A stretch of DNA of 64,000 nucleotides from Escherichia phage saus132: sequence record NC_047884.1; one strand, written 5' to 3'. A model generated the notes under the pieces. The model was not told the DNA's origin. It worked only from the letters and a program-made list of their open reading frames with translations, and searched no databases. Positions 1 through 10,273 of this stretch are shown here, piece after piece. A program made the position numbers and the translations under genes. Position 1 is the first letter of the stretch, and every line of letters starts with the position of its first letter.

Positions 1-8
1 TTTAATTG

Positions 9-743
9 TTAGGCAACTTTTAATTTATCAATGAATTGTTGCGGAGTGGTACTATATTCCGCGCGTTCTTCCTCGGTCATACCTTCCCAACACATTTTTA
101 AACGTTCGGCTAGGAATTGATAATCGTTATCATCATCAAGCGATTCATCAATAAAGGTTTCACCGATCAATGTTACGCCGATTGATAGGATATCATTAAC
201 GGCTTGAGCGTCCAGCGTTTTAAATCCAGCACTTGCCGCCGCCGATAATACACCTTTATGATCATCAATCATTGTAAAATCAGCGTTAGGATATAGCTGT
301 TTAAACAGTTCAAAGTAATAAGATTTATATACAGCGTCTTTGCTGTGATATATTTCGCTAACCTTATTTGCATCAAAGTATTTATGTAATGTATCGCGGG
401 AAAATACGCGAATATTACTATTTCCGCGCCCTCGCAAGCCTTGTTTACGCAAATAAAAGTAATCGCTTTTAGACATTAAGCGAGCGGTACAAATAATATT
501 TAAAGTATTTGCATCATTCATGCACTGGCGCATATATTCAACCAACGGCAATAAAGAATCCTGCATAATTAAATCATGTTTACAGGCTTCGCGGAAATAC
601 TTATTTAAATCTAAATTCCCGTTATCATCAAAGCAAGGCGCTACACGGTGGAAAGAATTAATGATAGTTCCGTCTAAGTCCCAAATCATAACGCGGGAAA
701 TATGCGGGAAAGTGCGGGTAATATTCATATTGACTTGATTCAT
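9..743 (-). CDS. dmp: 5'-deoxyribonucleotidase, HAD-family phosphatase (T5 Dmp-like)
   Basis: 244-aa ORF; HAD motif I DLDGT near N-terminus; first gene of the pre-early block. Confidence 0.75.
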   Translation of the reverse strand: MNQVNMNITRTFPHISRVMIWDLDGTIINSFHRVAPCFDDNGNLDLNKYFREACKHDLIMQDSLLPLVEYMRQCMNDANTLNIICTARLMSKSDYFYLRKQGLRGRGNSNIRVFSRDTLHKYFDANKVSEIYHSKDAVYKSYYFELFKQLYPNADFTMIDDHKGVLSAAASAGFKTLDAQAVNDILSIGVTLIGETFIDESLDDDNDYQFLAERLKMCWEGMTEEERAEYSTTPQQFIDKLKVA

Positions 744-830
744 TTGTTACATTCTCCATTTAAGGGATTTAGGTTAATTCAATCTTGCCAGCTAATTATA
801 TTAGATTAGCTGGCAATGTTCAATTAACTA

Positions 831-1223
831 TTAATTAGTGAGGCCATACGCTAGCGCGTCACCGATAAAGGAAAGATCTTCACCATGTACGCTAGAACGG
901 ATACCCGCGCAAGTGTAAACCATCGCGCTAGCTTCTGGATTGCAGACCGGACACGGCTTAACAACTGCAAACGCTAGACCGGATTTAAGCGCATCAATAA
1001 TAATTGTTTGCACTGTCAAAGTATCAGCGTAAACTCCTTTTGCTTTTGTATGGCTTGCCACTTTGCCGGTATCATAAGCAAAGGTAGTAACCTGCAAAGC
1101 GTCGTTATAATTCAGCAAATCGAAATTAACTTGCCCCGCCTCGACGTGATAACGTTCGCCATTAGAATAAACTAGAACGATGGAAGAAGTAGCACGATCA
1201 AAAGGAATGTTTTGGTTTTTCAT
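831..1223 (-). CDS. hypothetical pre-early protein
   Basis: 130-aa ORF co-directional with dmp and A1; no recognisable motif. Confidence 0.5.
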   Translation of the reverse strand: MKNQNIPFDRATSSIVLVYSNGERYHVEAGQVNFDLLNYNDALQVTTFAYDTGKVASHTKAKGVYADTLTVQTIIIDALKSGLAFAVVKPCPVCNPEASAMVYTCAGIRSSVHGEDLSFIGDALAYGLTN

Positions 1224-1255
1224 GTTTATGACTCCAGATTATTTAATTACGGGAT

Positions 1256-1534
1256 TTATTGAAAAAATACATTTAAAGATAAATCAGTTTTACGAAAATA
1301 TGTTTCGTCGCCGTCTTTCCTTTCTTGATTAAGGTAATCGCCTGTCATTACCTGAATAGAATCTTTTCCGAAAAAGATCATATTTTCGCCAATATTACTA
1401 TCCCATACGGCATACATTCCCGCGTACATTCCACGGGTAACTAAATAAACGCAACTATCAAAAGACATTTCAGACCATGCAATATCTTCTAAACAATTGC
1501 TATCAGGGATAGATATATTAATTTTACTAGCCAT
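1256..1534 (-). CDS. hypothetical pre-early protein
   Basis: 92-aa ORF, tight spacing in same operon. Confidence 0.45.
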   Translation of the reverse strand: MASKINISIPDSNCLEDIAWSEMSFDSCVYLVTRGMYAGMYAVWDSNIGENMIFFGKDSIQVMTGDYLNQERKDGDETYFRKTDLSLNVFFQ

Positions 1535-1586
1535 TTAATAAACCTTTTATTAATGGCGGTATATTTCAACCGCCGATTAAATTTAA

Positions 1587-3251
1587 TTATGCAAAGAATT
1601 TTCCATTCTTAAAGTCAATCAAAGTACGCTGCCCGTTTGCGTATGTAATTAAATGGGTTTGCGTCCAGCTACTAGCGCCAACGTTGTAACCCATATCGAG
1701 ACTACCAGCAACGCCAGCGGTATAAACGCCGCCATAAATACTAGCCGTGTGAGTGTGGCCAGTATTGAGGCGTCCCAACTTTTTGAACTGTTTTGGATTG
1801 CCCCGACTGCCATTAATGCCGTTGTGACCATGAACACCGCATTCAATTCCTGCAATCTTGAAAGATTGGTCAGTGGTTAGGAAAATGGCGTTAAATTCGC
1901 AACCTGCAACGTTTCTAAGCGCGTAATCCAATACGTTAAAGGTATCATCTTGTTTTGCAATAGCTGCATAAATCGCGGCGTTTAGGCTGTGATACAGTTC
2001 GGCGTTTGCGGGGTCGTCTTTAATGTTAGCGTTGCGATCATCAAGCCAACGGGATAACGCCAAATCATGATTGGATTCCACGATGATTGTTTGAGAAAAA
2101 TCGCGCTCCATTGACTCCAACACGCGACCGGTATCAATGAGATCGTCAATAACTTTGTCACGTCCGGCGGCGTACTGTTTAGCTAGGAATACACCAGAGG
2201 CACGATTATGATGATTGCGGGATGTAAAATCGTGTACGTCATGGATAAACTGATATTTCGGTTTAAGAATATCAAGCAAGCTATTTTCGCCCACCCATGA
2301 TGCAACGGCGCAATCATCATCTAATTTTTCGGCGTGAATATCGCCATATTGCAAGCCTAAAACATGATCAGATGTTTTGAAACATCCGGTGGGCACAGCG
2401 CAAACGTTCAAATCGTAGAACATCCCGCTTTCGTCCATAGTTTCAAGCTGGCGAACAAAAAATTCTCCGTCGTCGTCAAATTCTACCAGTAAAGCACCGA
2501 AATTATGCAGCGCCTCGGCCTTTTGTCCTGCCTTTTGCTGAATATAGTTTTTAAGTGTAGCCGTTCCGGTGGAGTACATACGGCGCACTACTTCACCTTT
2601 TAACGCTGGCACACTTTCAGCGGTAATTTTTGCGTGACCAATTGCCAGACCTTCGATGTTTAAAGCCGTTGCAGTTTCTGCGAATCCAGAAAGCGGATAA
2701 TCTGCCGTTGGTAATACATTAATTTCAGCCATGAAAGCAAAACGGCGATTATTCAAAAACACGTTTTTCTCACAAATATATTTATCAAATGCGGGATCAT
2801 ATTTGATTTTTTCGCCGCCTTCCCCGTTCTGAAATCCGTTTTTGTTGTAAATGAATTTGCTAACAAGTAATTCAGCGCCGTAATAACTAGCGTACTGCTC
2901 AAGCGCTTTCAAAAAGTTTTTATGCGGGAAAGTATTGTTTTGAATCGACGTTAGAATAAAACGGCGACCGGATTTAACTTCCCACTGTTCAACGGTGCTA
3001 GAAACAATCCCCGCCGCTTCTGGGCGATCATCGTTTTTAATGGCTTTTACTGCCTTCGCTGCCTTCGGTTTCGCTGGCTTATTTGCTTCCAACCAGTCAC
3101 AAATTGCCGTTGAATGTTTCGGCGTATCATAAACAGCTTTTGAAATATCGTCGCAAACTTCCAATTTAGTAGCGCGTAAACGCTTACCGTAGAAGTTAAA
3201 ATCTGCGGCCATTTTCAAAATTTGAGCTTGTTTTTCTGCGGAAATATTCAT
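1587..3251 (-). CDS. A1: A1-like pre-early protein with metallophosphatase-type motifs (putative nuclease/phosphoesterase)
   Basis: 554-aa ORF; GDIHAE, VHGHNG and GHTHTAS motifs resemble calcineurin-like phosphoesterase signatures; size and position fit T5 A1. Confidence 0.7.
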   Translation of the reverse strand: MNISAEKQAQILKMAADFNFYGKRLRATKLEVCDDISKAVYDTPKHSTAICDWLEANKPAKPKAAKAVKAIKNDDRPEAAGIVSSTVEQWEVKSGRRFILTSIQNNTFPHKNFLKALEQYASYYGAELLVSKFIYNKNGFQNGEGGEKIKYDPAFDKYICEKNVFLNNRRFAFMAEINVLPTADYPLSGFAETATALNIEGLAIGHAKITAESVPALKGEVVRRMYSTGTATLKNYIQQKAGQKAEALHNFGALLVEFDDDGEFFVRQLETMDESGMFYDLNVCAVPTGCFKTSDHVLGLQYGDIHAEKLDDDCAVASWVGENSLLDILKPKYQFIHDVHDFTSRNHHNRASGVFLAKQYAAGRDKVIDDLIDTGRVLESMERDFSQTIIVESNHDLALSRWLDDRNANIKDDPANAELYHSLNAAIYAAIAKQDDTFNVLDYALRNVAGCEFNAIFLTTDQSFKIAGIECGVHGHNGINGSRGNPKQFKKLGRLNTGHTHTASIYGGVYTAGVAGSLDMGYNVGASSWTQTHLITYANGQRTLIDFKNGKFFA

Positions 3252-3359
3252 AACTAAATCAACTCCTATAAAGGGATAAATATTAATACTGGCAATATTG
3301 CCAAATATAACGCCTTACCTGAAGTGAGGACAATTTAAAAGGCGTTATAATTTGCAATA

Positions 3360-3605
3360 TTATTCTAGAATTGGCATAAGACTAGAACTAAAACCGCAAC
3401 TAATAGCCAGCGTTAAAAATATAATCGCCAGATATTTTTGTTTATTAGCTTGACGTTTAAACATATCAGCGGCATAAGCTGAATTAATGCCGATAATAGA
3501 AATTATATATTTGCCGTAATTAAATATAAATATAGCGGCAACTATAAATAAACCTAAAATAAACGCTTCACTAGGGAAGAAGATCATTTTAATAACTCCG
3601 GTCAA
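3360..3605 (-). CDS. small membrane protein
   Basis: 81 aa with two hydrophobic segments. Confidence 0.45.
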   Translation of the reverse strand: MTGVIKMIFFPSEAFILGLFIVAAIFIFNYGKYIISIIGINSAYAADMFKRQANKQKYLAIIFLTLAISCGFSSSLMPILE

Positions 3606-3645
3606 AGGGAAATTATAGCGGGGAATAATCCCCGCTAATTAAAAT

Positions 3646-4062
3646 TTATTCACCTGCGGCCTGTTTTACTTCCTCCGCTACGCCTAACAATTGCGCTACG
3701 GCTTCCAGCGTTTCCAGTTTTGCACTTTCCAGACTTGCCAGATCATCAGCGTCTTTGATAACGCCAGCATCAATGGCATGTTTAGCCATAACGCGCACAT
3801 AGTGAGCTTTACGGACACTAGACCCGCCGCCAACTTTACGCGGTTTATCACTTTTCTGGTACGCTTTTGCGCTTGTCAGTTTAGAACGTACAGAAACAGG
3901 GCTTGCAGCGCCAACGGCGGCGGCAATTTCTTTCAGGCCGTCACTGTTAGCAAATTCAATTCCGCTTTTAGCGACCATTTCAGAATACATAGAAACAGCC
4001 TTTTCGGTGTTTTCTTCGTTCCAAGAGAATTTTGCGGTTTTTTCGGTTTTAACGTTAGACAT
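3646..4062 (-). CDS. A2: A2-like pre-early protein (putative DNA-binding)
   Basis: 138-aa ORF immediately upstream of A1 in transcription order, as in T5; Ala-rich. Confidence 0.5.
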   Translation of the reverse strand: MSNVKTEKTAKFSWNEENTEKAVSMYSEMVAKSGIEFANSDGLKEIAAAVGAASPVSVRSKLTSAKAYQKSDKPRKVGGGSSVRKAHYVRVMAKHAIDAGVIKDADDLASLESAKLETLEAVAQLLGVAEEVKQAAGE

Positions 4063-4348
4063 AATTTAATACTCCATTCAATTATTAATTAAGGGATTAT
4101 GATTAACTAAATGTTAATCGCTATATATTCTATTAGCTAGAATATATAACGGAAACATTTTATTTTTATTTCCAGTTTCAAGCGGTTTATTAATTCCCGA
4201 ATATATTTATATTCTCACCTTATCCGGCTTGCCAGAGAATTAATAAGGCAACATTGTATTTATACGCTGTTTATTATTCCGTTCACGCTAGGAATATTTC
4301 GAGTTATCTTTATTGCCTAACTAAGCATGATATGTAAGGCGCATTAAT

Positions 4349-4600
4349 TTATGCGATAGCTTGCCATTTATCATCTTTCTGAATGATTTTTACAACGTCG
4401 CCAGATTTAACACGGACGTTATAAATAGGCTTGCCGTGGTTACTGCGTTCCGTTTCCGCATAGACCGCTTCAATCTTATCAAAGGGATCAAGCGCCGCAC
4501 CTTTAATACGTTCGGCTTTTCCGGTTAATTCATCCGTTTTAGTTACAAAAGGAATGAATACAGATTGACCTACTTTCGGCGCGGTAATAACGTTTTGCAT
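4349..4600 (-). CDS. hypothetical protein
   Basis: 83-aa ORF in pre-early block. Confidence 0.45.
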   Translation of the reverse strand: MQNVITAPKVGQSVFIPFVTKTDELTGKAERIKGAALDPFDKIEAVYAETERSNHGKPIYNVRVKSGDVVKIIQKDDKWQAIA

Positions 4601-4764
4601 TTTTAATACTCCGGTTTATTGGGGATTATTCCACAATAGCGCCTCGATACTTTGAAACGCTATTAGATTATAATCCGCTAGGAGTTAGCCTAAACATTAC
4701 CGTTATCCAAATTGTTAAAGAGCAGTTACTACGGGGAACATCTTAAAACCTATCGGCTAGCGTG

Positions 4765-4974
4765 TCAAGCGTTTTTTAAACTTTTTTCGATTTGATGTGA
4801 GTTATATAAATCAATCATTATATTACGCCACACCATTTCCAGACCTTGCTGCTTACCTTTCTTGTATTGCTTGAATCTGTATTTTACAGATCTTTGCGCT
4901 ACTGTCAACAAATTTTTTGTTCTGCTATCAAGTGACTTGATAGGCTTGCCAGTGATCAAAAGCGTTTGTTTCAT
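4765..4974 (-). CDS. hypothetical basic protein
   Basis: 69-aa ORF. Confidence 0.4.
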   Translation of the reverse strand: MKQTLLITGKPIKSLDSRTKNLLTVAQRSVKYRFKQYKKGKQQGLEMVWRNIMIDLYNSHQIEKSLKNA

Positions 4975-5129
4975 TTGAGATCCTCCAAAGCATATAAACC
5001 ATCCCCATCATTGCAGATTATTACCGCTTCCGAATGATTAGCATAGTATTCATTTGCAGTCTTTACCCATTGTTCGATTTTTTCGATAGTGTCGTGGGTA
5101 GCTGGATGATCGTTAAATATTATTGTCAT
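4971..5129 (-). CDS. hypothetical small protein (52 aa)
   Basis: ATG ORF whose TGA overlaps the ATG of the downstream gene (ATGA); below the track size cutoff. Confidence 0.3.
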   Translation of the reverse strand: MTIIFNDHPATHDTIEKIEQWVKTANEYYANHSEAVIICNDGDGLYALEDLK

Positions 5130-5504
5130 ATCGTCGATTCCTTATAATGTATAAGTTTACCGCCGATAGGCTTTAAGATGTTCCCTAGTTTTTAAAGAGC
5201 ATGGCGGTAAACTTCCCCGCCGTGTAGTTCGTCATTGCCGCCCTACGTGATAAATATTAGGGGAATACCGAAAAGGGCGCAACCATATTTTTGTAAAGAA
5301 ACGTAAAGACAAACGCCACCGCACCACGTCCAGCGGCGCACTAAATTTAATGAAACGGGCGCGCGAATAACACCAAAACAACCATTTTAGCAAGTAATTT
5401 TTTCATTTATATCTGCTCTAGGGTACTTGACAAAATCTAAAATCCTCGTGGTGAGGTTTTCTCGGTGTGCCCCTTATGGTTGCCTATCTTTTCCTTTGAG
5501 GCGC

Positions 5505-5531
5505 TTAGAATGCGTTACAGAGCGTTTTAGA
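5505..5531. repeat. 27-bp perfect direct repeat, copy 1 (TTAGAATGCGTTACAGAGCGTTTTAGA)
   Basis: identical 27-mer recurs at 8081-8107 in the same orientation. Confidence 0.8.
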
Positions 5532-5854
5532 CCCTGTTAATAACTTATACAAAAAGCAAAAATGAAATTTAATGAGTTATCCACTTGATTTTTCAAAAAA
5601 GTATTTTCTGCTATTATTTTTCATTGACAAATAAGTTTAGACGTGCATTGATTGGTTAGCAGACTAACAATCGCTAGGATGATAATCACGCTGGTGGATT
5701 GTAACAGCTGAAACAGTTAGCAGACTATTAATACTCTAAAAACCTATTAGCCAACTAACTATTTCATATTATATAATATACTTATAAATTAAAGAGAAAT
5801 AATAACTATAAGAAACTATCGGCTAAGTGAGAACCACTATCATTTAGGTTATTC

Positions 5855-5960
5855 ACAAAGTTATCCACAGCACAAAATAACTTGACGCAATAGGCGACGT
5901 TTTGGCGACTTATCCACAGACTTATATACAGGTTATCCTACTGTATAAATATACAGGGTA
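5855..5960. promoter_or_regulatory. left arm of ~105-bp inverted repeat carrying two DnaA boxes and a LexA-type box
   Basis: TTATCCACA at 5861-5869 and 5910-5918; TACTGTATAAATATACAGGG at 5939-5958 (CTGT-N8-ACAG); reverse complement of 8135-8250 is about 75-90 percent identical. Confidence 0.6.
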
Positions 5961-6095
5961 GAATGGTAGCAGTAACAACCGCAATCAAATTTAAGCGGCC
6001 TAGAACACGCTATACGGCGTTTTCTCACTGCTACCCTTATTATAATAAAGCCTTGTGTACGCTTACAGAGAACTAGAAATAGAAAACGCGCGGCA

Positions 6096-6209
6096 ATGGA
6101 AGCGGCAATGTTGGAAATGGTACAAAGTTTCAATATTGCTGAAATGATCGATGAAATGGTAAAAGGTATTGACATTTCAACCTTTACCCAAAATGCTGAA
6201 AGCGAGTAA
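6096..6209 (+). CDS. hypothetical small protein (37 aa)
   Basis: ATG ORF followed by hairpin plus T-run; below the track size cutoff. Confidence 0.3.
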   Translation: MEAAMLEMVQSFNIAEMIDEMVKGIDISTFTQNAESE

Positions 6210-6237
6210 TAATTAGTCTAATGTAAAGTTTTGTAAA

Positions 6238-6263
6238 GGTCGCCCTAATCGGCGGCCTTTTTT
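6238..6263 (+). terminator. putative intrinsic terminator
   Basis: GGTCGCC-CTAATC-GGCGGCC hairpin followed by TTTTTT. Confidence 0.5.
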
Positions 6264-6271
6264 GTTATAAT
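6263..6271 (+). promoter_or_regulatory. extended -10 promoter element (TGTTATAAT)
   Basis: TGnTATAAT about 58 nt upstream of the 6329 ATG; -35 weak. Confidence 0.35.
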
Positions 6272-6328
6272 GCCTTTACACCGAAACGGTGGATTGAAAA
6301 TTTTCCCCTGATTTCTAGGAGGCGTTAA

Positions 6329-6556
6329 ATGGTACATTCATCATCTTCTGCAATTTTTAACGGTATGGAATGGGTATCCGTTCCCGCTATTGTCAGCGTT
6401 ATGGTTTCTGAGTTCGGCATAGGTAAAACTTATGTTACCATTCAGGGGCTTTACGACAATGACAAGATTGACCAGCAAACCGCCGGATTTTTGCTGGATG
6501 AATTGAAAGCTAACCATTGCACTAAAAAGCAAGCGGCAAAAATTGTTTTAATGTAA
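6329..6556 (+). CDS. hypothetical protein
   Basis: 75-aa ORF; AGGAGG RBS upstream of ATG; first gene of an opposite-strand cassette. Confidence 0.55.
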   Translation: MVHSSSSAIFNGMEWVSVPAIVSVMVSEFGIGKTYVTIQGLYDNDKIDQQTAGFLLDELKANHCTKKQAAKIVLM

Positions 6557-6602
6557 TTATTAAAGGGGATATATTATCCCCTAATTTCTAGGAGCTAATA
6601 AA

Positions 6603-6752
6603 ATGGTTATTTTTCGATCTATTCTGGCTAGTATCTTGGGCGCTATTTTATCGTTGTTTGCAATAGCTTTCGGTGTTCATGCCGTTATTATCGGAGCAGG
6701 TATCGCGGGGTTTTCTTACTTGTTAGGCTGTATGACTGGTAAAGGGGAATAA
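6603..6752 (+). CDS. small membrane protein (49 aa)
   Basis: AGGAG RBS; hydrophobic; stop 2 nt before next ATG. Confidence 0.4.
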   Translation: MVIFRSILASILGAILSLFAIAFGVHAVIIGAGIAGFSYLLGCMTGKGE

Positions 6753-6754
6753 AA

Positions 6755-6967
6755 ATGTTAAAGAATGTTTCCCTTGCCCGTTCCAAAGGTTTTAAGCTGG
6801 TGGATGTTAACACGTTCGAGCGTCCAGATTGTAAAATTGAATATGTAGCACGCAACAAAAACGCTTTCCGTGTCACTGAAAAGAAATTTGACAAGCGCGG
6901 CAATTTGGTAGCCGAAACGGTTAAACACTTTGCCACTTTTTACGCTGCATTTCGTGGGGTATTATGA
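6755..6967 (+). CDS. hypothetical protein
   Basis: 70-aa ORF in plus-strand cassette. Confidence 0.5.
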   Translation: MLKNVSLARSKGFKLVDVNTFERPDCKIEYVARNKNAFRVTEKKFDKRGNLVAETVKHFATFYAAFRGVL

Positions 6968-7104
6968 AAACTTTATTTTCTATTTTGCTCGGTGCTGCTG
7001 GTGGCTTTATTGCTACCTGCTTTAAAAGTGATCCTGCACTGTTAGGCGTTTATTCGATTTGTTTTGGCTATTTGCTAGGGAGGCTGGCAGATGGTTATTT
7101 ATGA
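6964..7104 (+). CDS. small membrane protein (46 aa)
   Basis: ATGA overlap with upstream stop; hydrophobic. Confidence 0.35.
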   Translation: MKTLFSILLGAAGGFIATCFKSDPALLGVYSICFGYLLGRLADGYL

Positions 7105-7435
7105 GGGCAATCGCTTTGTTACTAATTGCCGTCCGGCATTATTAGCAAACTATTTAAACCAGCTTTCACCAGTTTATAAAGGCGTAATTAATATCTATGA
7201 GGGCAAAGCACATTATAAGATTAATGCCATTGTTGCCCGTGAACTAGCGTTTCAATTTTTAACTTTTGGATCTTGTGACGTTCAGGTTATGGGGGAAGCG
7301 TTAATAGCAGAAAATGAAAATGAATTTATCGACATTTTCCGCAAAGTATGTACAGAGCGCCTGATTATGAAAGGCGCGTATATTCAATCAACCGCTGAAA
7401 GTATAGAAACAGCGTTTCGAAAGGTGGCGCAATGA
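7091..7435 (+). CDS. hypothetical protein
   Basis: 114-aa ORF. Confidence 0.5.
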   Translation: MVIYEGNRFVTNCRPALLANYLNQLSPVYKGVINIYEGKAHYKINAIVARELAFQFLTFGSCDVQVMGEALIAENENEFIDIFRKVCTERLIMKGAYIQSTAESIETAFRKVAQ

Positions 7436-7629
7436 CTAAAGATGAAGCACTAGAAAAAATGAAACAAGGTTTCAAAGTTCGTCAAGAATACTTCACTAGT
7501 GAGGAATTTTTGTACATGAAAAATGGCGTGATCATGTCAGAAGATGGATATACTTTTAATGACTGGTTTTTCAAGATTACCCCTGCTACACGTTGGAAGC
7601 TAGACGGTTGGAGCGTCTACCGTGAATAG
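7432..7629 (+). CDS. hypothetical protein
   Basis: 65-aa ORF, ATGA overlap with upstream gene. Confidence 0.5.
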   Translation: MTKDEALEKMKQGFKVRQEYFTSEEFLYMKNGVIMSEDGYTFNDWFFKITPATRWKLDGWSVYRE

Positions 7630-7752
7630 CTGGTGGCGAAAAACACAAAGCCATAAATCTAATAATACCGCTGGGAAACATTCCCAGCGTTTACGATTTA
7701 GTAGCGGGCTTGTAATGGTAATAATAATCATTCTCATTCTAGGAGCGATGGC

Positions 7753-7992
7753 ATGGCTGTAAGAATTTTACGATATGTGGAACGTAAAGAAACCGATATT
7801 ATGCAACATCATTTAACTGATGCGCAATACGCGCAATTTTTAGAAATGCAGAAAAGCGGAGCTGATACGGCAACGCTAGGAGCGTGGATCAACTCAGTTT
7901 CAACGTGTACGCATTTTGATTCATACGGGTATACGCCAGCCGAAACCGTCCAGATCTTTGATGACTACGAGAAAGAATACATAGCAGACTAA
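7753..7992 (+). CDS. hypothetical protein
   Basis: 79-aa ORF; GGAG RBS. Confidence 0.5.
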   Translation: MAVRILRYVERKETDIMQHHLTDAQYAQFLEMQKSGADTATLGAWINSVSTCTHFDSYGYTPAETVQIFDDYEKEYIAD

Positions 7993-8080
7993 TAATAACG
8001 GGGCGCAACTATCGGCCCCGCTTTTTCTGGCCTTCCTCAAATTTCCCCTTATTAAAATACCTCCTCCAAAAATAAACGCG

Positions 8081-8107
8081 TTAGAATGCGTTACAGAGCG
8101 TTTTAGA
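8081..8107. repeat. 27-bp perfect direct repeat, copy 2
   Basis: identical to 5505-5531. Confidence 0.8.
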
Positions 8108-8134
8108 GCTATATTAGAGTTATTCACTACGCAG

Positions 8135-8250
8135 GAATACTGTATAAATATACAGTAGAATAACCTGTTGATAAGTCTGTGGATAACGCCTCAAAATCGC
8201 TAGGATTTTGTCAAGTCAAATCGTGCTGTTAATAAACCGGTGGATAACTT
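8135..8250. promoter_or_regulatory. right arm of inverted repeat with LexA-type box and DnaA boxes (inverted)
   Basis: TACTGTATAAATATACAGTA at 8137-8156; TGTGGATAA at 8178-8186; GTGGATAA at 8240-8247. Confidence 0.6.
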
Positions 8251-8279
8251 AAATAACAGTGTTTCTCACTTCGCTTTGT

Positions 8280-8424
8280 AAATGCGAGTCACTCTCATTA
8301 TCATTCGCGTTTCCCTTCCTAAATGCAAATCATTCTCATTCGTATTCCGGTAGTCAAATGATAACTATTCTCATTCGCATTCAACTTCTCAAATGCGAAT
8401 CAATCTCATTATCATTTGCATTTC
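8280..8424. repeat. four tandem ~35-bp imperfectly palindromic direct repeats (AAATGCGA..TCTCATT..TCATTCGC-like)
   Basis: units beginning near 8280, 8321, 8356 and 8391. Confidence 0.7.
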
Positions 8425-8459
8425 GGCAGGCAGGGCATTTTCTATTTGCCCTGCGCTTT

Positions 8460-9061
8460 TGTGCAAATCCGACATTTGCCCCCACGGATTACGTGCCAGC
8501 GTGCATGTGCGAATCCGACAATTTTTGGTAGTGTGCAAATCCGATGGCAAATATTTTTTATATGTGCGAATCCGACAATGAATTTTCCTAAAAACTCCAG
8601 CAATCCGCAACTGCGATGCAATCCAGCTGGGTTTACTAGAGTATGTGCAAATTCGACAAGTGTTAAGGTGTGCGAATCCGACAAGATTTTTGTGACTTCG
8701 ATGAGAGGGTGTGTGATTGTGTGGGTTTGGGGAGAAGTGCGAATCCGATGAGATTTTGGGAGGAACTACGGAAGGAGCAGCGGTGATGGTGCTTTAGCAC
8801 CGGTTTGCTGCATTTTTGGGGATAATGCGGGATGTTTTGGATAGAATTGAGATTATGGGAGATAAAGCGAAATTTTATTAGCAAAATGGGGCAAAATAGC
8901 TTGACAGGTGAAAATTCCTGTGGCTCTAAAAACTCAGGCAAATATGGGCCTTCGGCCCGAAATAATGCTGCTATTTTCAGTGTTCCTAAAAACTTTGGAG
9001 ACTCCTATCAATGTGCAAATCCGACCATAAATTTCTAGAAACATAATGTGCAAATCCGACA
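8460..9061. repeat. array of nine same-orientation 15-bp repeats, consensus TGTGCRAATCCGAY
   Basis: copies at about 8460, 8506, 8532, 8563, 8644, 8669, 8737, 9012 and 9047; irregular spacing; no credible ORF. Confidence 0.75.
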
Positions 9062-9547
9062 GTAATTTCCAGACTGACAAGAGTCAATTATTTTTCCTAG
9101 AAATAACCGCCTCCCTATAACCGCCCTGTATAGGAAACCGCCCTAGGATATGTAACGTTGGAGAGAAACTGCCTTAGAATGCGTGAGTTTTCCTAGAAAC
9201 TTAGGAGTCTACTAGAAAGTGGTGTGCCATCCTAGCAGATGAGCGGCAACCGGTGTATCATCTTGAACACAAATATTGCCTTTAAATATTATAAGGTAAA
9301 TAAAAGTTAATATACCCCCATTTCATGAGAGTTAGTCCCTCTAGGCGCGTGCGATTTGATACATCCTCCTGAGTCTCGGGGAGGAAGAACAATTGACGAG
9401 AACCTGCAAGCAGAACCGTCATCAAGTATTTTCCTACGAGGAATGATGTAAATCTACGGCCTAGAGGTAAAAACAAGTTGATGTTTTTAATCTATGAGAT
9501 TATTATAACATGCAGCTCAAATAATGTCAAGAAGATTTTGCTAACGT

Positions 9548-10273
9548 TTATAGATCGTGATTGACTTTGAGTATGACTCCCCTCGATGCCATGAAAAGGA
9601 ATGTTGCTAGGTAAGATGACTCGGAATTTAGCGCAGAATAATCTACACTTCCTCTAGGTCTAGTTTCTTGTTTAGTGTCAAGAATTGTTTCGATATCAAA
9701 CTTAACAGATCTTGCAACTTTTCTAGCTTGTTCAGGATCACGTAAGATTTCAAAGTGAGCAGCATCTAGAATATGGTTAGATGATGTTGATTCGTCAACT
9801 ATACTTAGATGAACCTGCGCAAGTGTAGATACGATTCCTAGCTTTAATTCAGATAGAGAAGAATATGGTGGTTCTACTTTCTTTGTAAGTCTAGGGAGAT
9901 GATCGTATTTACATTGCTTTTGAGGAATCATCAGAATATTAGGATAACATTCTAAACATGACTTTGCATTTCCTTCTTTAAAATGCGGGAGTTCTTTATC
10001 TGCAAAGACGTGGAATGAATCTGCTGAAAATCCTTTAATAGTAGGATCAACAGCTTGAATCAGACGACGTAAACTAATATATGAAGGAGCTAATGTGACT
10101 TCTTCTGCATCTTTATTATATTTAGGTTGCCCACTAGCATTAATATATGCTGGATAAAACTCTGCACAAAATGCTACTGCATGAGCTTCTAACTCATTAA
10201 GTTCGGAAACATTCTTTCCATTACAAGCTCTAGCTAACTTAATAATCTCTGCTAAATTCTTTTTTATACTCAT
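9548..10273 (-). CDS. hypothetical protein
   Basis: 241-aa ORF, first gene after the repeat region. Confidence 0.55.
   Translation of the reverse strand: MSIKKNLAEIIKLARACNGKNVSELNELEAHAVAFCAEFYPAYINASGQPKYNKDAEEVTLAPSYISLRRLIQAVDPTIKGFSADSFHVFADKELPHFKEGNAKSCLECYPNILMIPQKQCKYDHLPRLTKKVEPPYSSLSELKLGIVSTLAQVHLSIVDESTSSNHILDAAHFEILRDPEQARKVARSVKFDIETILDTKQETRPRGSVDYSALNSESSYLATFLFMASRGVILKVNHDL

What the first reader, a model, noticed from the sequence alone, without database searches (positions are those of the whole stretch)
5424..8250. Opposite-strand gene cassette bracketed by inverted repeats carrying DnaA and LexA-type boxes, plus a perfect 27-bp direct repeat
5855-5960 and 8135-8250 are inverted copies that each contain TTATCCACA DnaA boxes and a near-consensus LexA box (TACTGTATAAATATACAG). 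An identical 27-mer sits at 5505-5531 and 8081-8107. The bracketed segment holds about eight small plus-strand genes in an otherwise minus-strand region. This looks like an invertible or recombinogenic module, or an SOS- and DnaA-controlled switch.
Basis: seen in the sequence. Interest (0 to 1): 0.7.

Follow-up and report, generated by a model that had tools for sequence, protein, structure and literature searches.

The report
T5 pre-early inverted repeats with LexA/DnaA boxes
This is the already-described pair of inverted non-coding blocks that bracket a dispensable gene cassette in the first-injected DNA of T5-like phages; it is not a flip-switch, but each block carries a near-perfect, family-wide conserved binding site for the host SOS repressor LexA that the accessible literature does not mention.

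Summary
The window is positions 1-64000 of T5-like phage chee130_1. The finding lies in its left terminal repeat, the first-step-transfer (pre-early) DNA.

**Already known.**
- The two arms are the published IRC-spacer-IRD and IRD'-spacer-IRC' repeats.
- They carry eight paired DnaA boxes, described for 25 T5-like phages including this one (Davison 2020).
- The right arm opens the injection-stop-signal region.

**Apparently not described.**
- Each arm ends, on the cassette side, in an SOS box. These are the two top LexA-matrix hits in 64 kb (26.2 and 22.6 bits; next best 13.5).
- The box is kept in all 45 complete loci examined, including Proteus, Pectobacterium and Vibrio phages.
- The same 20-mer sits in front of DinI-like and UmuD-like genes in other viral contigs.

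**Not supported: an invertible switch.**
- No inverted or deleted junction appears in about 540 related records, and the cassette encodes no recombinase.
- Protein homology does show one or more ancient inversions of the block, in Sugarlandvirus and Myunavirus.
- No convincing LexA-controlled promoter was found.
- T5 lacking hegG-017 is viable.

**Best reading.** The arms are host-protein (DnaA, LexA) binding platforms on the first-injected DNA. Their function is unproven.

The parts
5505..5531 (.). Left copy of the exact 27-mer (TTAGAATGCGTTACAGAGCGTTTTAGA), in the non-coding region left of the left arm. It probably corresponds to T5's IRB element.
   Evidence: family D9, 100%. The left copy is found only in close Epseptimavirus relatives. 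The CTAAAACGCTCT motif on its reverse strand recurs in distant phages.
5822..5956 (+). Left inverted-repeat arm, IRC-spacer-IRD of T5 nomenclature (Repeat Region 2).
   Evidence: (I1). [quoted passage not shown] Described in Davison 2020.
5849..5869 (+). DnaA box pair 1: TTATTCACA-AAG-TTATCCACA.
   Evidence: direct reading.
5910..5930 (+). DnaA box pair 2: TTATCCACA-GAC-TTATATACA. The second box has one mismatch.
   Evidence: direct reading. TRF reports a period-12 repeat at 5907-5931.
5939..5958 (.). Left LexA-type (SOS) box, TACTGTATAAATATACAGGG, on the cassette-proximal edge of the arm.
   Evidence: 17/20 to consensus; 22.6 bits; 17.0-26.2 bits at this position in relatives.
6096..6209 (+). 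37-aa ORF, the C-terminal remnant of pre-early gene 011 (DUF7566). The rest of 011 and its promoter region are deleted.
6235..6271 (+). Intrinsic-terminator hairpin (6235-6263) followed directly by an extended -10 motif, TGtTATAAT (6264-6271). Both are conserved in T5 after gene 011.
   Evidence: terminator; 25/26 identical to the annotated T5 terminator; flank conserved in T5. The promoter reading is inference.
6329..6556 (+). 75-aa pre-early ORF, homolog of T5.012.
   Evidence: 72% identity; phrog_5145.
6603..6752 (+). 49-aa hydrophobic ORF, homolog of T5.013. Not annotated in the GenBank record.
   Evidence: phrog_5607.
6755..6967 (+). 70-aa ORF, homolog of T5.014. This family is labelled 'endonuclease nicking abasic sites generated by host Ung' in PHROGs and RefSeq.
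   Evidence: 93% identity; phrog_4227.
6964..7104 (+). 46-aa hydrophobic ORF.
   Evidence: phrog_19184.
7091..7435 (+). 114-aa ORF, homolog of T5.015 (toxic in E. coli; called an Ung-dependent nickase in the 2026 preprint). Not annotated in the GenBank record.
   Evidence: 89% identity; phrog_4379.
7432..7629 (+). 65-aa ORF with a sub-threshold Tad2-like (Thoeris anti-defence 2) match.
   Evidence: phrog_3474; PF11195, E 0.0025, 18.8 bits against a cutoff of 25.
7753..7992 (+). 79-aa ORF, the last gene of the cassette. Not annotated in the GenBank record.
   Evidence: phrog_12351; 96% identical in Seafire.
8002..8030 (.). G+C-rich hairpin followed by a T run (CGGGGCgcaactatcgGCCCCGCTTTTT), the likely end of rightward transcription.
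   Evidence: Direct reading. The homologous hairpin is annotated as a terminator in phage Seafire. The scan missed it because the loop exceeds 8 nt.
8078..8107 (.). Three phased 10-bp units (GCGTTAGAAT, GCGTTACAGA, GCGTTTTAGA) that contain the right copy of the 27-mer (8081-8107).
   Evidence: D9; direct reading. The right copy is kept with 5 or fewer mismatches, 57 nt from the box, in about half of the relatives examined; motif recurrence. TRF does not call it.
8138..8157 (.). Right LexA-type (SOS) box, TACTGTATAAATATACAGTA, on the cassette-proximal edge of the right arm.
   Evidence: 19/20; 26.2 bits, the best in the window; 22.9-26.2 bits in all close relatives. In T5 it lies inside the annotated iss.
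8140..8274 (-). Right inverted-repeat arm, IRD'-spacer-IRC' (start of Repeat Region 3, the injection-stop-signal region).
   Evidence: (I1). 440 of 536 records cover at least 80% of 8060-8290. Described in Davison 2020.
8166..8186 (-). DnaA box pair: TTATCCACA (8178-8186) and TTATCAACA (8166-8174), 3 bp apart.
   Evidence: direct reading.
8227..8247 (-). DnaA-like box pair: TTATCCACC (8239-8247) and TTATTAACA (8227-8235), 3 bp apart.
   Evidence: Direct reading.

Best explanation
**What it is.** The region is the right half of the terminal repeat (first-step-transfer, pre-early DNA) of a T5-like phage. Two conserved non-coding blocks in inverted orientation bracket a variable, dispensable operon of small host-takeover genes. 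These blocks are T5's IRC-spacer-IRD and IRD'-spacer-IRC'.

**Anatomy of each block.** Each is a compact array of operator sequences for pre-existing host proteins:
- two pairs of DnaA boxes around a fixed 52-nt interval;
- one near-perfect SOS box on the edge facing the cassette;
- beyond that, a short array of phased CTArAACGC-type units, to which the '27-mer' belongs.

**Most likely mechanism (inferred).** When this DNA enters the cell, host DnaA and LexA occupy both blocks. This forms nucleoprotein complexes at the two ends of the cassette. The right one sits at the start of the injection-stop-signal region. These complexes act at the DNA level, not as a DNA-inversion switch or a classical SOS promoter. 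Possible actions are helping to hold or pause the partly injected genome and marking where pre-early transcription ends.

**Shown.** The sequences, their statistical strength, their architecture, their family-wide conservation, a fixed orientation within genera, an ancient inversion between genera, and the dispensability of the cassette in T5.

**Inferred.** Actual DnaA and LexA occupancy, and any role in the transfer pause.
For: - **Identity and location.** The window is 100% identical to MF431736.1, with the left terminal repeat at 1-8717.
- **Published description.** The same repeats and eight paired DnaA boxes are described in 25 T5-like phages, including chee130_1.
- **Arms verified here.** The arms, box pairs and 52-nt interval were checked directly.
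- **LexA boxes as outliers.** They score 26.2 and 22.6 bits, against 13.5 for the next best site and 12.5 +/- 2.1 for simulated maxima.
- **Conservation of the boxes.** In every complete T5-like locus the two best LexA-matrix hits are the two arm boxes. The box persists next to TTATCCACA boxes in Stubb, My1, Vibrio Chester and Vibrio 70E37-3, where A1 is only 33-43% identical.
- **Substitution pattern.** Natural variants fall at positions that genuine operators tolerate: T1C, A15C giving CCAG, and a central CC as in sulA (operator tolerances are my own knowledge).
- **Same 20-mer elsewhere.** The identical 20-mer lies 15-20 nt upstream of DinI-family and S24/UmuD-like ORFs in unrelated viral contigs.
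- **The right arm is the more constrained.** It follows the operon's terminator and lies inside T5's annotated iss. This fits a DNA-level role better than promoter control.
- **The field.** The iss mechanism is still open, and interaction with host components is invoked.
Against: - No binding data exist for DnaA or LexA on any T5-like first-step-transfer DNA.
- A cytoplasmic protein bound to DNA that has already entered gives no obvious mechanical stop.
- T5 deleted from hegG to 017 is viable with only small plaques. If the deletion is contiguous, it removes the left arm. So at least the left block is non-essential.
- T5 is generally grown on recA strains (own knowledge), so LexA cleavage cannot be required for second-step transfer.
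- Several relatives have a damaged left box, ACAA at 17 bits.
- The palindrome could instead be the site of the phage's dimeric A2 protein, whose HTH-like recognition stretch is invariant across the family.
- The LexA matrix was built from operators recalled from memory.
Confidence: 0.6

Rival explanations
1. **Classical SOS and DnaA operator.** Each arm contains a weak inward-firing promoter, with its -35 inside a DnaA box and its -10 inside the LexA box. Host LexA and DnaA repress it. Cassette genes (sense from the left arm, antisense from the right arm) would then be tuned to the host's DNA-damage or replication state.
For: - The left box lies upstream of the rightward operon.
- A promoter-like match, TTATCA-16-TATATT (9/12), overlaps the right box on the inward strand.
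- Identical 20-mers act upstream of SOS genes in other viral contigs.
- With inward-firing promoters in both arms, one would always face the cassette in either orientation.
Against: - The hexamer matches are weak. The left arm's equivalent has only 2-3 of 6 in the -35 (direct reading).
- The candidate TAGAAT after the left box is not conserved in T5 or Seafire.
- T5's experimentally characterised rightward promoter is about 200 bp downstream of the box and is absent here.
- The better-conserved box is the one downstream of the operon.
- In the scan, 20 promoter-like sites were found against 12.6 +/- 3.8 expected, so single weak hits carry little weight.
Confidence: 0.15
2. **A phage protein is the true ligand.** The palindrome is the binding site of a phage-encoded protein and only resembles an SOS box. 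The most likely candidate is the dimeric DNA-binding protein A2, alone or with A1, which is required for second-step transfer. In a mixed version, A2 competes with LexA for the site.
For: - A2 is essential for second-step transfer and is a DNA-binding dimer (literature summarised).
- The A2 family keeps an invariant HTH-like stretch (S54, V58, R59, K61, L62) from E. coli phages to Vibrio phages. A conserved operator is therefore expected somewhere in this DNA.
- The palindrome lies in the iss, where A1 and A2 are thought to act.
Against: - The site matches the LexA consensus at 19 of 20 positions, including the flanking TA dinucleotides. It outscores the recalled E. coli operators, and its variants follow LexA's tolerance pattern. 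That is an unlikely coincidence for an unrelated protein.
- A2 shows no significant similarity to LexA (hhalign probability 0.3%). It matches no Pfam family and no solved structure.
- Other conserved motifs, such as the CTArAACGC arrays and the DRD repeats, are equally available as A2 sites.
Confidence: 0.2
3. **Programmed invertible or recombinogenic module.** The arms are recombination sites that flip or excise the cassette during the phage life cycle. The 27-mer direct repeat mediates deletion.
For: - Inverted repeats bracket an opposite-strand cassette.
- The block has the opposite orientation in Sugarlandvirus and Myunavirus.
- The cassette content is highly variable among relatives.
Against: - Orientation is fixed in all close relatives.
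- 0 of 543 records contain the inversion junction and 0 of 535 contain the 27-mer deletion junction.
- The arms are only 75% identical, and no recombinase or invertase family is present.
- In the inverted genera, two or three plus-strand genes remain beside the right arm, so the breakpoints need not be the arms.
- The actual deletion seen here (gene 011) used a different 10-bp repeat.
- The left 27-mer copy exists only in a few close relatives.
Confidence: 0.03

Closest known systems
T5 first-step-transfer repeat regions 2 and 3: IRC-spacer-IRD and IRD'-spacer-IRC' with eight DnaA boxes, at the injection stop signal (Heusterspreute 1987; Wang 2005; Davison 2015 and 2020, bioRxiv 10.1101/866236)
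   Same: - The genomic position, the inverted layout and the paired DnaA boxes 3 bp apart are the same.
- The 52-nt interval is the same.
- A variable rightward operon lies between the arms.
- This very phage is in Davison's comparison.
   Different: - Structurally nothing differs.
- The SOS-box identity of the terminal palindrome is not mentioned in that paper ('LexA', 'SOS' and 'promoter' each occur 0 times). It is not mentioned in any other held paper either.
- Gene 011 is deleted in this phage.
LexA operators (SOS boxes) of Gammaproteobacteria and their phages, for example in front of tum-type antirepressors, dinI and umuD homologs
   Same: The 20-bp sequence is the same. The exact 20-mer is found upstream of DinI-family and S24-family ORFs in other viral contigs. 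Its matrix score is above the recalled E. coli operators.
   Different: - Here no gene start or convincing promoter is within reach of either box.
- The boxes come as an inverted pair 2.2 kb apart, fused to DnaA-box arrays.
- The phage is strictly lytic, so there is no induction decision to couple to SOS.
Site-specific invertible segments (Mu G / P1 C segments with Gin/Cin, Salmonella hin, fimS)
   Same: Inverted repeats flank a gene block whose strand differs from its surroundings. Both orientations exist somewhere in the family.
   Different: - There is no recombinase.
- The arms are long and 25% diverged, rather than short crossover sites.
- There is no orientation polymorphism among about 540 relatives.
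DnaA-box clusters such as oriC and datA
   Same: Several consensus TTATCCACA boxes are closely spaced in fixed phase.
   Different: T5 replication origins map near the genome centre, and replication genes are not on the first-injected DNA (literature cited). No unwinding element was examined here.

Membership tests
T5-type IRC-spacer-IRD / IRD'-spacer-IRC' repeats of first-step-transfer DNA | Located in the long terminal repeat of a Demerecviridae genome, between the A2-side leftward operon and the untranslated repeat region (iss). | tested here: met
   The window equals MF431736.1 and the LTR is 1-8717. dmp, A1 and A2 lie on the minus strand to the left. A repeat-rich untranslated stretch at 8250-9500 lies to the right.
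T5-type IRC-spacer-IRD / IRD'-spacer-IRC' repeats of first-step-transfer DNA | Two copies of about 131 bp in inverted orientation, homologous to those of T5. | tested here: met
   The arms are 135 nt and 75% complementary. They are 79-91% identical to the T5 arms.
T5-type IRC-spacer-IRD / IRD'-spacer-IRC' repeats of first-step-transfer DNA | Eight DnaA or DnaA-like boxes in pairs separated by 3 bp, with a 52-bp spacer. | tested here: met
   Four boxes per arm in two 3-bp-spaced pairs, with 52-nt intervals at 5870-5921 and 8175-8226. The interval definition is my reading of Davison's text.
T5-type IRC-spacer-IRD / IRD'-spacer-IRC' repeats of first-step-transfer DNA | Acts as the injection stop signal (DNA transfer pauses here). 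| not testable with these tools
   Two-step transfer has been shown only for T5 and BF23, and the responsible sequence has not been mapped genetically.
LexA operator (SOS box) | A 20-bp palindrome matching TACTG(TA)5CAGTA with intact CTGT and ACAG half-sites. | tested here: met
   19/20 and 17/20, with both half-sites intact. Scores are 26.2 and 22.6 bits against 12.5 +/- 2.1 for simulated maxima.
LexA operator (SOS box) | Overlaps or adjoins the promoter of a regulated gene. | tested here: inconclusive
   Only weak promoter-like matches overlap the boxes. The mapped T5 promoter is about 200 bp away and is absent here. The right box is downstream of the operon.
LexA operator (SOS box) | Bound by LexA, with DNA-damage-dependent derepression. 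| not testable with these tools
   No experimental data were found in the library.
Site-specific invertible DNA segment | An invertase or recombinase is encoded in or next to the segment. | tested here: not met
   No recombinase family was found among the nine cassette ORFs or the neighbouring pre-early proteins in Pfam or PHROGs.
Site-specific invertible DNA segment | Both orientations are found among close relatives or within a population. | tested here: not met
   A single orientation is seen in all close relatives. 0 of 543 records have the inversion junction. The opposite orientation is seen only between genera. Read-level heterogeneity could not be tested.
DnaA-dependent replication origin | A DnaA-box cluster next to an AT-rich unwinding element, at a mapped origin. 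| not tested
   The boxes are present, but the literature places T5 origins near the genome centre. No unwinding element was analysed.

The most novel reading that the evidence does not exclude
Host LexA, together with DnaA, is a working component of the T5 injection-stop complex.

1. Pre-existing LexA dimers occupy the palindrome at the edge of each arm as the first 8% of the genome enters.
2. This occupancy helps to arrest or anchor the DNA.
3. The newly made dimeric HTH protein A2, with A1, displaces LexA to license second-step transfer.

The accessible literature on the 60-year-old two-step-injection problem never mentions LexA. The site is conserved from E. coli phages to Vibrio phages.
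Probability: 0.1. Interest if true: 0.8.

Novelty: already known. Interest (0 to 1): 0.4.

Why it matters
What stops T5 DNA transfer after 8% of the genome, and how A1 and A2 restart it, has been unexplained since the 1960s. Papers from 2026 still call it poorly understood.

The inverted repeats and DnaA boxes are already part of that discussion. What this analysis adds is a second host-factor site: an essentially perfect LexA operator fused to the DnaA-box array. It is conserved across Demerecviridae genera that share little other nucleotide similarity.

This makes simple experiments possible:
- LexA and A2 gel shifts on a 20-mer;
- infection of lexA(Def) sulA hosts;
- point mutations of the palindrome.

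The analysis also corrects the idea that the inter-arm genes of Sugarland-type and My1-type phages are unrelated replacements. They include inverted homologs of T5.011, T5.015 and T5.017.

If the LexA site proves irrelevant, the region remains an ordinary, well-described feature of T5-like genomes.

Tried and rejected
1. **Host-motif-switch test.** I looked for a T5-like phage of a host with a different LexA motif. Citromicrobium phage RXM has an A1-like gene, but it sits in a replication module with no A2 or first-step-transfer layout. The test was not applicable. All true Demerecviridae found infect Gammaproteobacteria, which share the CTGT-N8-ACAG motif.
2. **Mapping T5's promoters onto the window.** The promoter upstream of 011 and the minus-strand promoter near hegG have no counterpart here. 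Only P-H22 and P-D/E20 align, and they lie far to the left at about 4458-4920.
3. **Known RNA families.** Only sub-threshold hits were found.
4. **Tandem Repeats Finder on the 27-mer.** The 10-bp phasing is not called and rests on direct reading.
5. **A2 as a LexA-like protein.** There is no significant similarity, no Pfam family and no solved relative.
6. **Davison 2015 (PMC4743489).** The paper could not be read. Heusterspreute 1987 and Wang 2005 were not looked up, so I cannot exclude that one of these three noted the LexA similarity.
7. **Conservation of the box relative to its flanks among close relatives.** This was uninformative, because the whole arm is 88-98% conserved there. Only the distant genera discriminate.

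Full report
**Where this is.** Window 5200-8500 is 100% identical to positions 5200-8500 of Bacteriophage T5-like chee130_1 (MF431736.1, genus Epseptimavirus) and four sister isolates. The record annotates 1-8717 as the left terminal repeat. To the left, dmp, A1, A2 and several small genes lie on the minus strand. Plus-strand ORFs occupy 6096-7992. An untranslated, repeat-rich stretch follows, and minus-strand genes resume at 9548. The finding therefore sits in the first-step-transfer (pre-early) DNA of a T5-like phage.

- The inverted repeat has arms at 5822-5956 and 8140-8274 (135 nt, 75% complementary, aligned).
- TTATCCACA occurs three times in the 64-kb window, always inside the arms, against 0.64 expected.
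- With consensus variants, each arm carries four boxes in two pairs, the boxes of a pair 3 bp apart. Both arms share the same 52-nt interval, 5870-5921 and 8175-8226.
- The LexA-type 20-mers are at 5939-5958 (17/20 to consensus) and 8138-8157 (19/20).
- The loose pattern CTGT-N8-ACAG is not rare (2 found, 0.97 expected). On a LexA weight matrix, however, the sites score 26.2 and 22.6 bits. The next best site in the window scores 13.5. Simulated 64-kb sequences have maxima averaging 12.5, the largest 19.1. I built the matrix from about 24 E. coli operators recalled from memory, so the absolute values are approximate.
- The 27-mer is exact at 5505-5531 and 8081-8107.

**Most of it is already published.** Davison's 2020 preprint (10.1101/866236) compares 25 T5-like phages, chee130_1 among them. 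It describes Repeat Region 2 (IRC-spacer-IRD) and the start of Repeat Region 3 (IRD'-spacer-IRC') as near-identical inverted 131-bp blocks. It reports eight DnaA or DnaA-like boxes, always in pairs 3 bp apart, with a constant 52-bp spacer. The blocks bracket a highly variable coding region. It proposes that membrane-bound DnaA arrests DNA transfer there. T5's RefSeq record annotates 9140-10149 as the injection stop signal, and the T5 right-arm box lies inside that feature. Papers from 2023 and 2026 repeat that experimental tests are lacking and the mechanism is poorly understood.

**What the accessible literature does not mention is LexA.**
- 'LexA', 'SOS' and 'promoter' each occur zero times in Davison 2020.
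- No held paper combines T5 or T5-like phages with LexA in a relevant way.
- The palindrome string occurs in no held text.
- I could not read Davison 2015, and I did not look up Heusterspreute 1987 or Wang 2005. Priority is therefore uncertain. The palindrome is probably Wang's 'palD'.

**The LexA-type box is strongly conserved.**
- I fetched 37 loci around A2 homologs and T5, DT57C, Seafire, Sugarland and KpGranit.
- In every complete locus the two best LexA-matrix hits are the two arm boxes. The right arm scores 22.9-26.2 bits (mostly 26.2) and the left arm 17.0-26.2.
- Among close relatives the whole arm is conserved, so these loci do not single out the box.
- The distant genera do. A1 is only 33-43% identical and nucleotide similarity is otherwise lost, yet the box persists within about 100 nt of TTATCCACA boxes:
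  - Proteus phage Stubb: CACTGTATATTTATACAGTA;
  - Pectobacterium My1: TACTGTGTATTTATACAGTA and TACTGTATATTTATCCAGTA;
  - Vibrio Chester: TACTGTATATTTATACAGTG;
  - Vibrio 70E37-3: three boxes, 19-23 bits.
- The local syntax is also kept: DnaA box, 3 bp, DnaA box, GG, TTATCC, box.
- The variants seen are T1C, A7G, A15C (giving CCAG), A20G and a central CC. By my knowledge of E. coli SOS boxes, genuine operators tolerate changes at these positions.
- The exact 20-mer occurs in more than 120 other viral contigs, mostly prophage-sized. There it lies 15-20 nt upstream of ORFs that include a DinI-family protein (E 6e-12) and a Peptidase S24/UmuD-like protein (E 1e-4, truncated query). The sequence is thus used as a bona fide SOS operator in the same host range.

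**It is not a working inversion switch.**
- In all A2-anchored loci, the left flank, both arms, the cassette genes and the right-hand repeats are on the same relative strands as in the window.
- 132 records hold at least 80% of 5200-8500 collinear in one place.
- I built a synthetic inversion junction (left arm followed by the reverse complement of the cassette's right end) and a synthetic deletion junction across the 27-mer. No record covers 80% or more of either query: 0 of 543 and 0 of 535.
- No recombinase family is found among the nine cassette ORFs or the neighbouring pre-early proteins.
- Sub-populations within a lysate cannot be assessed from assemblies.

**The block has been inverted in evolution.**
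- All the loci compared were oriented with A2 on the minus strand, and the arms have the same polarity in each.
- T5.011 (336 aa, DUF7566; plus strand, next to the left arm in T5) has full-length homologs on the minus strand in Sugarland gp014 (36% identity, E 1e-43) and KpGranit, and a 110-aa match to My1_019 (52% identity, E 2e-36), also on the minus strand. Its homolog is on the plus strand in Stubb.
- T5.015 matches Sugarland gp011 and its KpGranit ortholog (E 1e-4 to 7e-7), and T5.017 matches My1_016 (E 1e-16), all on the minus strand.
- The order along the direction of transcription is preserved. Davison described these genera as having the region replaced by other ORFs read in the opposite direction. 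The protein matches show that at least part of it is an inverted homolog.
- In both inverted genera, two or three plus-strand genes remain next to the right arm. The breakpoints therefore need not be the arms, and a role of the arms in the inversion is unproven.

**Cassette content.** The ORFs are small pre-early genes:

| Coordinates | Length | Identity |
|---|---|---|
| 6096-6209 | 37 aa | C-terminal remnant of gene 011 |
| 6329-6556 | 75 aa | T5.012 homolog |
| 6603-6752 | 49 aa | T5.013 homolog |
| 6755-6967 | 70 aa | T5.014 homolog |
| 6964-7104 | 46 aa | membrane-like ORF |
| 7091-7435 | 114 aa | T5.015 homolog |
| 7432-7629 | 65 aa | sub-threshold Tad2-like match |
| 7622-7762 | 46 aa | doubtful ORF |
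| 7753-7992 | 79 aa | unknown function |

- About 990 bp of gene 011 were lost between GCGCGGCnAT repeats.
- T5's mapped promoter upstream of 011 has no counterpart here.
- The terminator after 011 is conserved at 6238-6263. It is followed at once by TGtTATAAT, also conserved in T5, which I infer is a restart promoter.
- In T5, 011, 013 and 015 are toxic in E. coli. A phage deleted from hegG to 017 is viable with small plaques. The cassette is therefore dispensable, and so is the left arm if the deletion is contiguous.

**The 27-mer.**
- It reads as three phased 10-bp units: GCGTTAGAAT, GCGTTACAGA and GCGTTTTAGA (8078-8107).
- Its reverse complement contains CTAAAACGCTCT. Related motifs (CTArAACGyyCT) recur beside the arms in T5, DT57C, Sugarland, KpGranit, Stubb, My1 and Vibrio Chester.
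- The right copy is kept, with up to 5 mismatches, 57 nt from the box in about half of the relatives. The left copy exists only in a few close Epseptimavirus relatives.
- Beyond the exact core, the repeat decays quickly (46/60 with gaps).
- It is therefore a member of a conserved motif family rather than a recombination scar. What binds it is unknown. TRF does not detect the phasing.

**How it most likely works.** The arms are dense arrays of sites for proteins that already exist in the host when the DNA arrives. The better-conserved arm lies after the operon's terminator, at the start of the stop-signal region, and no convincing promoter overlaps either box. I therefore favour a DNA-level role: DnaA and LexA occupy both arms of the first-injected DNA, as part of the complex that holds or delimits it.

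- Binding by LexA is very likely on sequence grounds.
- That this binding matters to the phage is inference.
- Against an essential role: the left arm appears dispensable, several left boxes are damaged, and T5 grows on recA hosts (own knowledge), so LexA cleavage cannot be needed for second-step transfer.

**Rivals.**
- *A LexA- and DnaA-repressed inward promoter.* There are weak matches only, and the best box faces antisense.
- *A phage protein as the true ligand, most plausibly A2.* A2 family members share an invariant HTH-like stretch. They show no significant similarity to LexA, and they match no Pfam family and no solved structure.
- *A mixed model.* A2 displaces LexA to restart transfer. 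This is the most novel reading not excluded.

**Verdict.** The structure is real, non-random and already described for this phage family, including this isolate. The invertible-switch idea is not supported, except as an ancient evolutionary event. The LexA-type operator is the one element that appears to have escaped comment, and it gives the unresolved injection-stop problem a cheap, direct test.

Noticed in passing
window 8078-8107 and 5501-5531; also L003, L004, L005, L006, L044, L045, L046: The 27-mer is three phased 10-bp GCGTTnnAGA units. Its reverse strand carries CTArAACGyyCT, which recurs next to the arms across distant Demerecviridae. It looks like a binding-site array for an unknown protein.
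   Followed up: partly
window 7432-7629 (+): The 65-aa pre-early ORF gives a sub-threshold Pfam match to the Tad2-like (Thoeris anti-defence 2) domain (E 0.0025, 18.8 bits, cutoff 25). It may be an anti-defence gene.
   Followed up: no
window 6603-6752, 7091-7435, 7753-7992 (+): Three ORFs have clear homologs in T5 or Seafire and match PHROG families (T5.013-like, T5.015-like, phrog_12351). They are not annotated in MF431736.1.
   Followed up: yes
window 6088-6097; Seafire L002 3887-3896 and 4885-4894: Gene 011 (DUF7566, toxic in E. coli) and its upstream region are removed by a deletion of about 990 bp between GCGCGGCnAT direct repeats. A 37-aa remnant ORF is left.
   Followed up: yes
window 9502-9530 (-): A perfect sigma-70 consensus (TTGACA, 17 nt, TATAAT, with an upstream TG) lies just outside the terminal repeat. 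It points leftward into the untranslated repeat region.
   Followed up: no
window 4734-4757 and 5162-5185: A second inverted repeat (24 nt, 96% complementary, 404 nt apart) brackets two small minus-strand genes in the hdi/009 region. It is probably T5's IRA/IRA'.
   Followed up: no
window 8263-8424 and 8457-9075: A 35-bp tandem array (2.6 copies) is followed by at least 7 copies of TGTGCRAATCCGACA. The second array runs across the annotated end of the terminal repeat at 8717. These match the DRE- and DRD-type repeats of the T5 stop-signal region.
   Followed up: partly
window 6755-6967 versus 7091-7435; NC_005859 T5.014 and T5.015: The label 'endonuclease nicking abasic sites generated by host Ung' is attached to the 70-aa T5.014 family in RefSeq and in PHROG 4227. 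A 2026 preprint names the nickase Gp015. This may be an annotation off-by-one.
   Followed up: no
window 3646-4062 (-), alignment A2: A2 proteins from E. coli phages to Vibrio phages share an invariant HTH-like stretch (LKEIAAAVGAASPVSVRSKL; S54, V58, R59, K61, L62). They match no Pfam family and no solved structure.
   Followed up: partly
L005 2070-6003, L006 2383-6010, L045 7854-11824: In Sugarlandvirus and Myunavirus, homologs of T5.011, T5.015 and T5.017 between the arms lie on the opposite strand. Two or three plus-strand genes remain beside the right arm. This indicates an ancient inversion of most of the block.
   Followed up: yes
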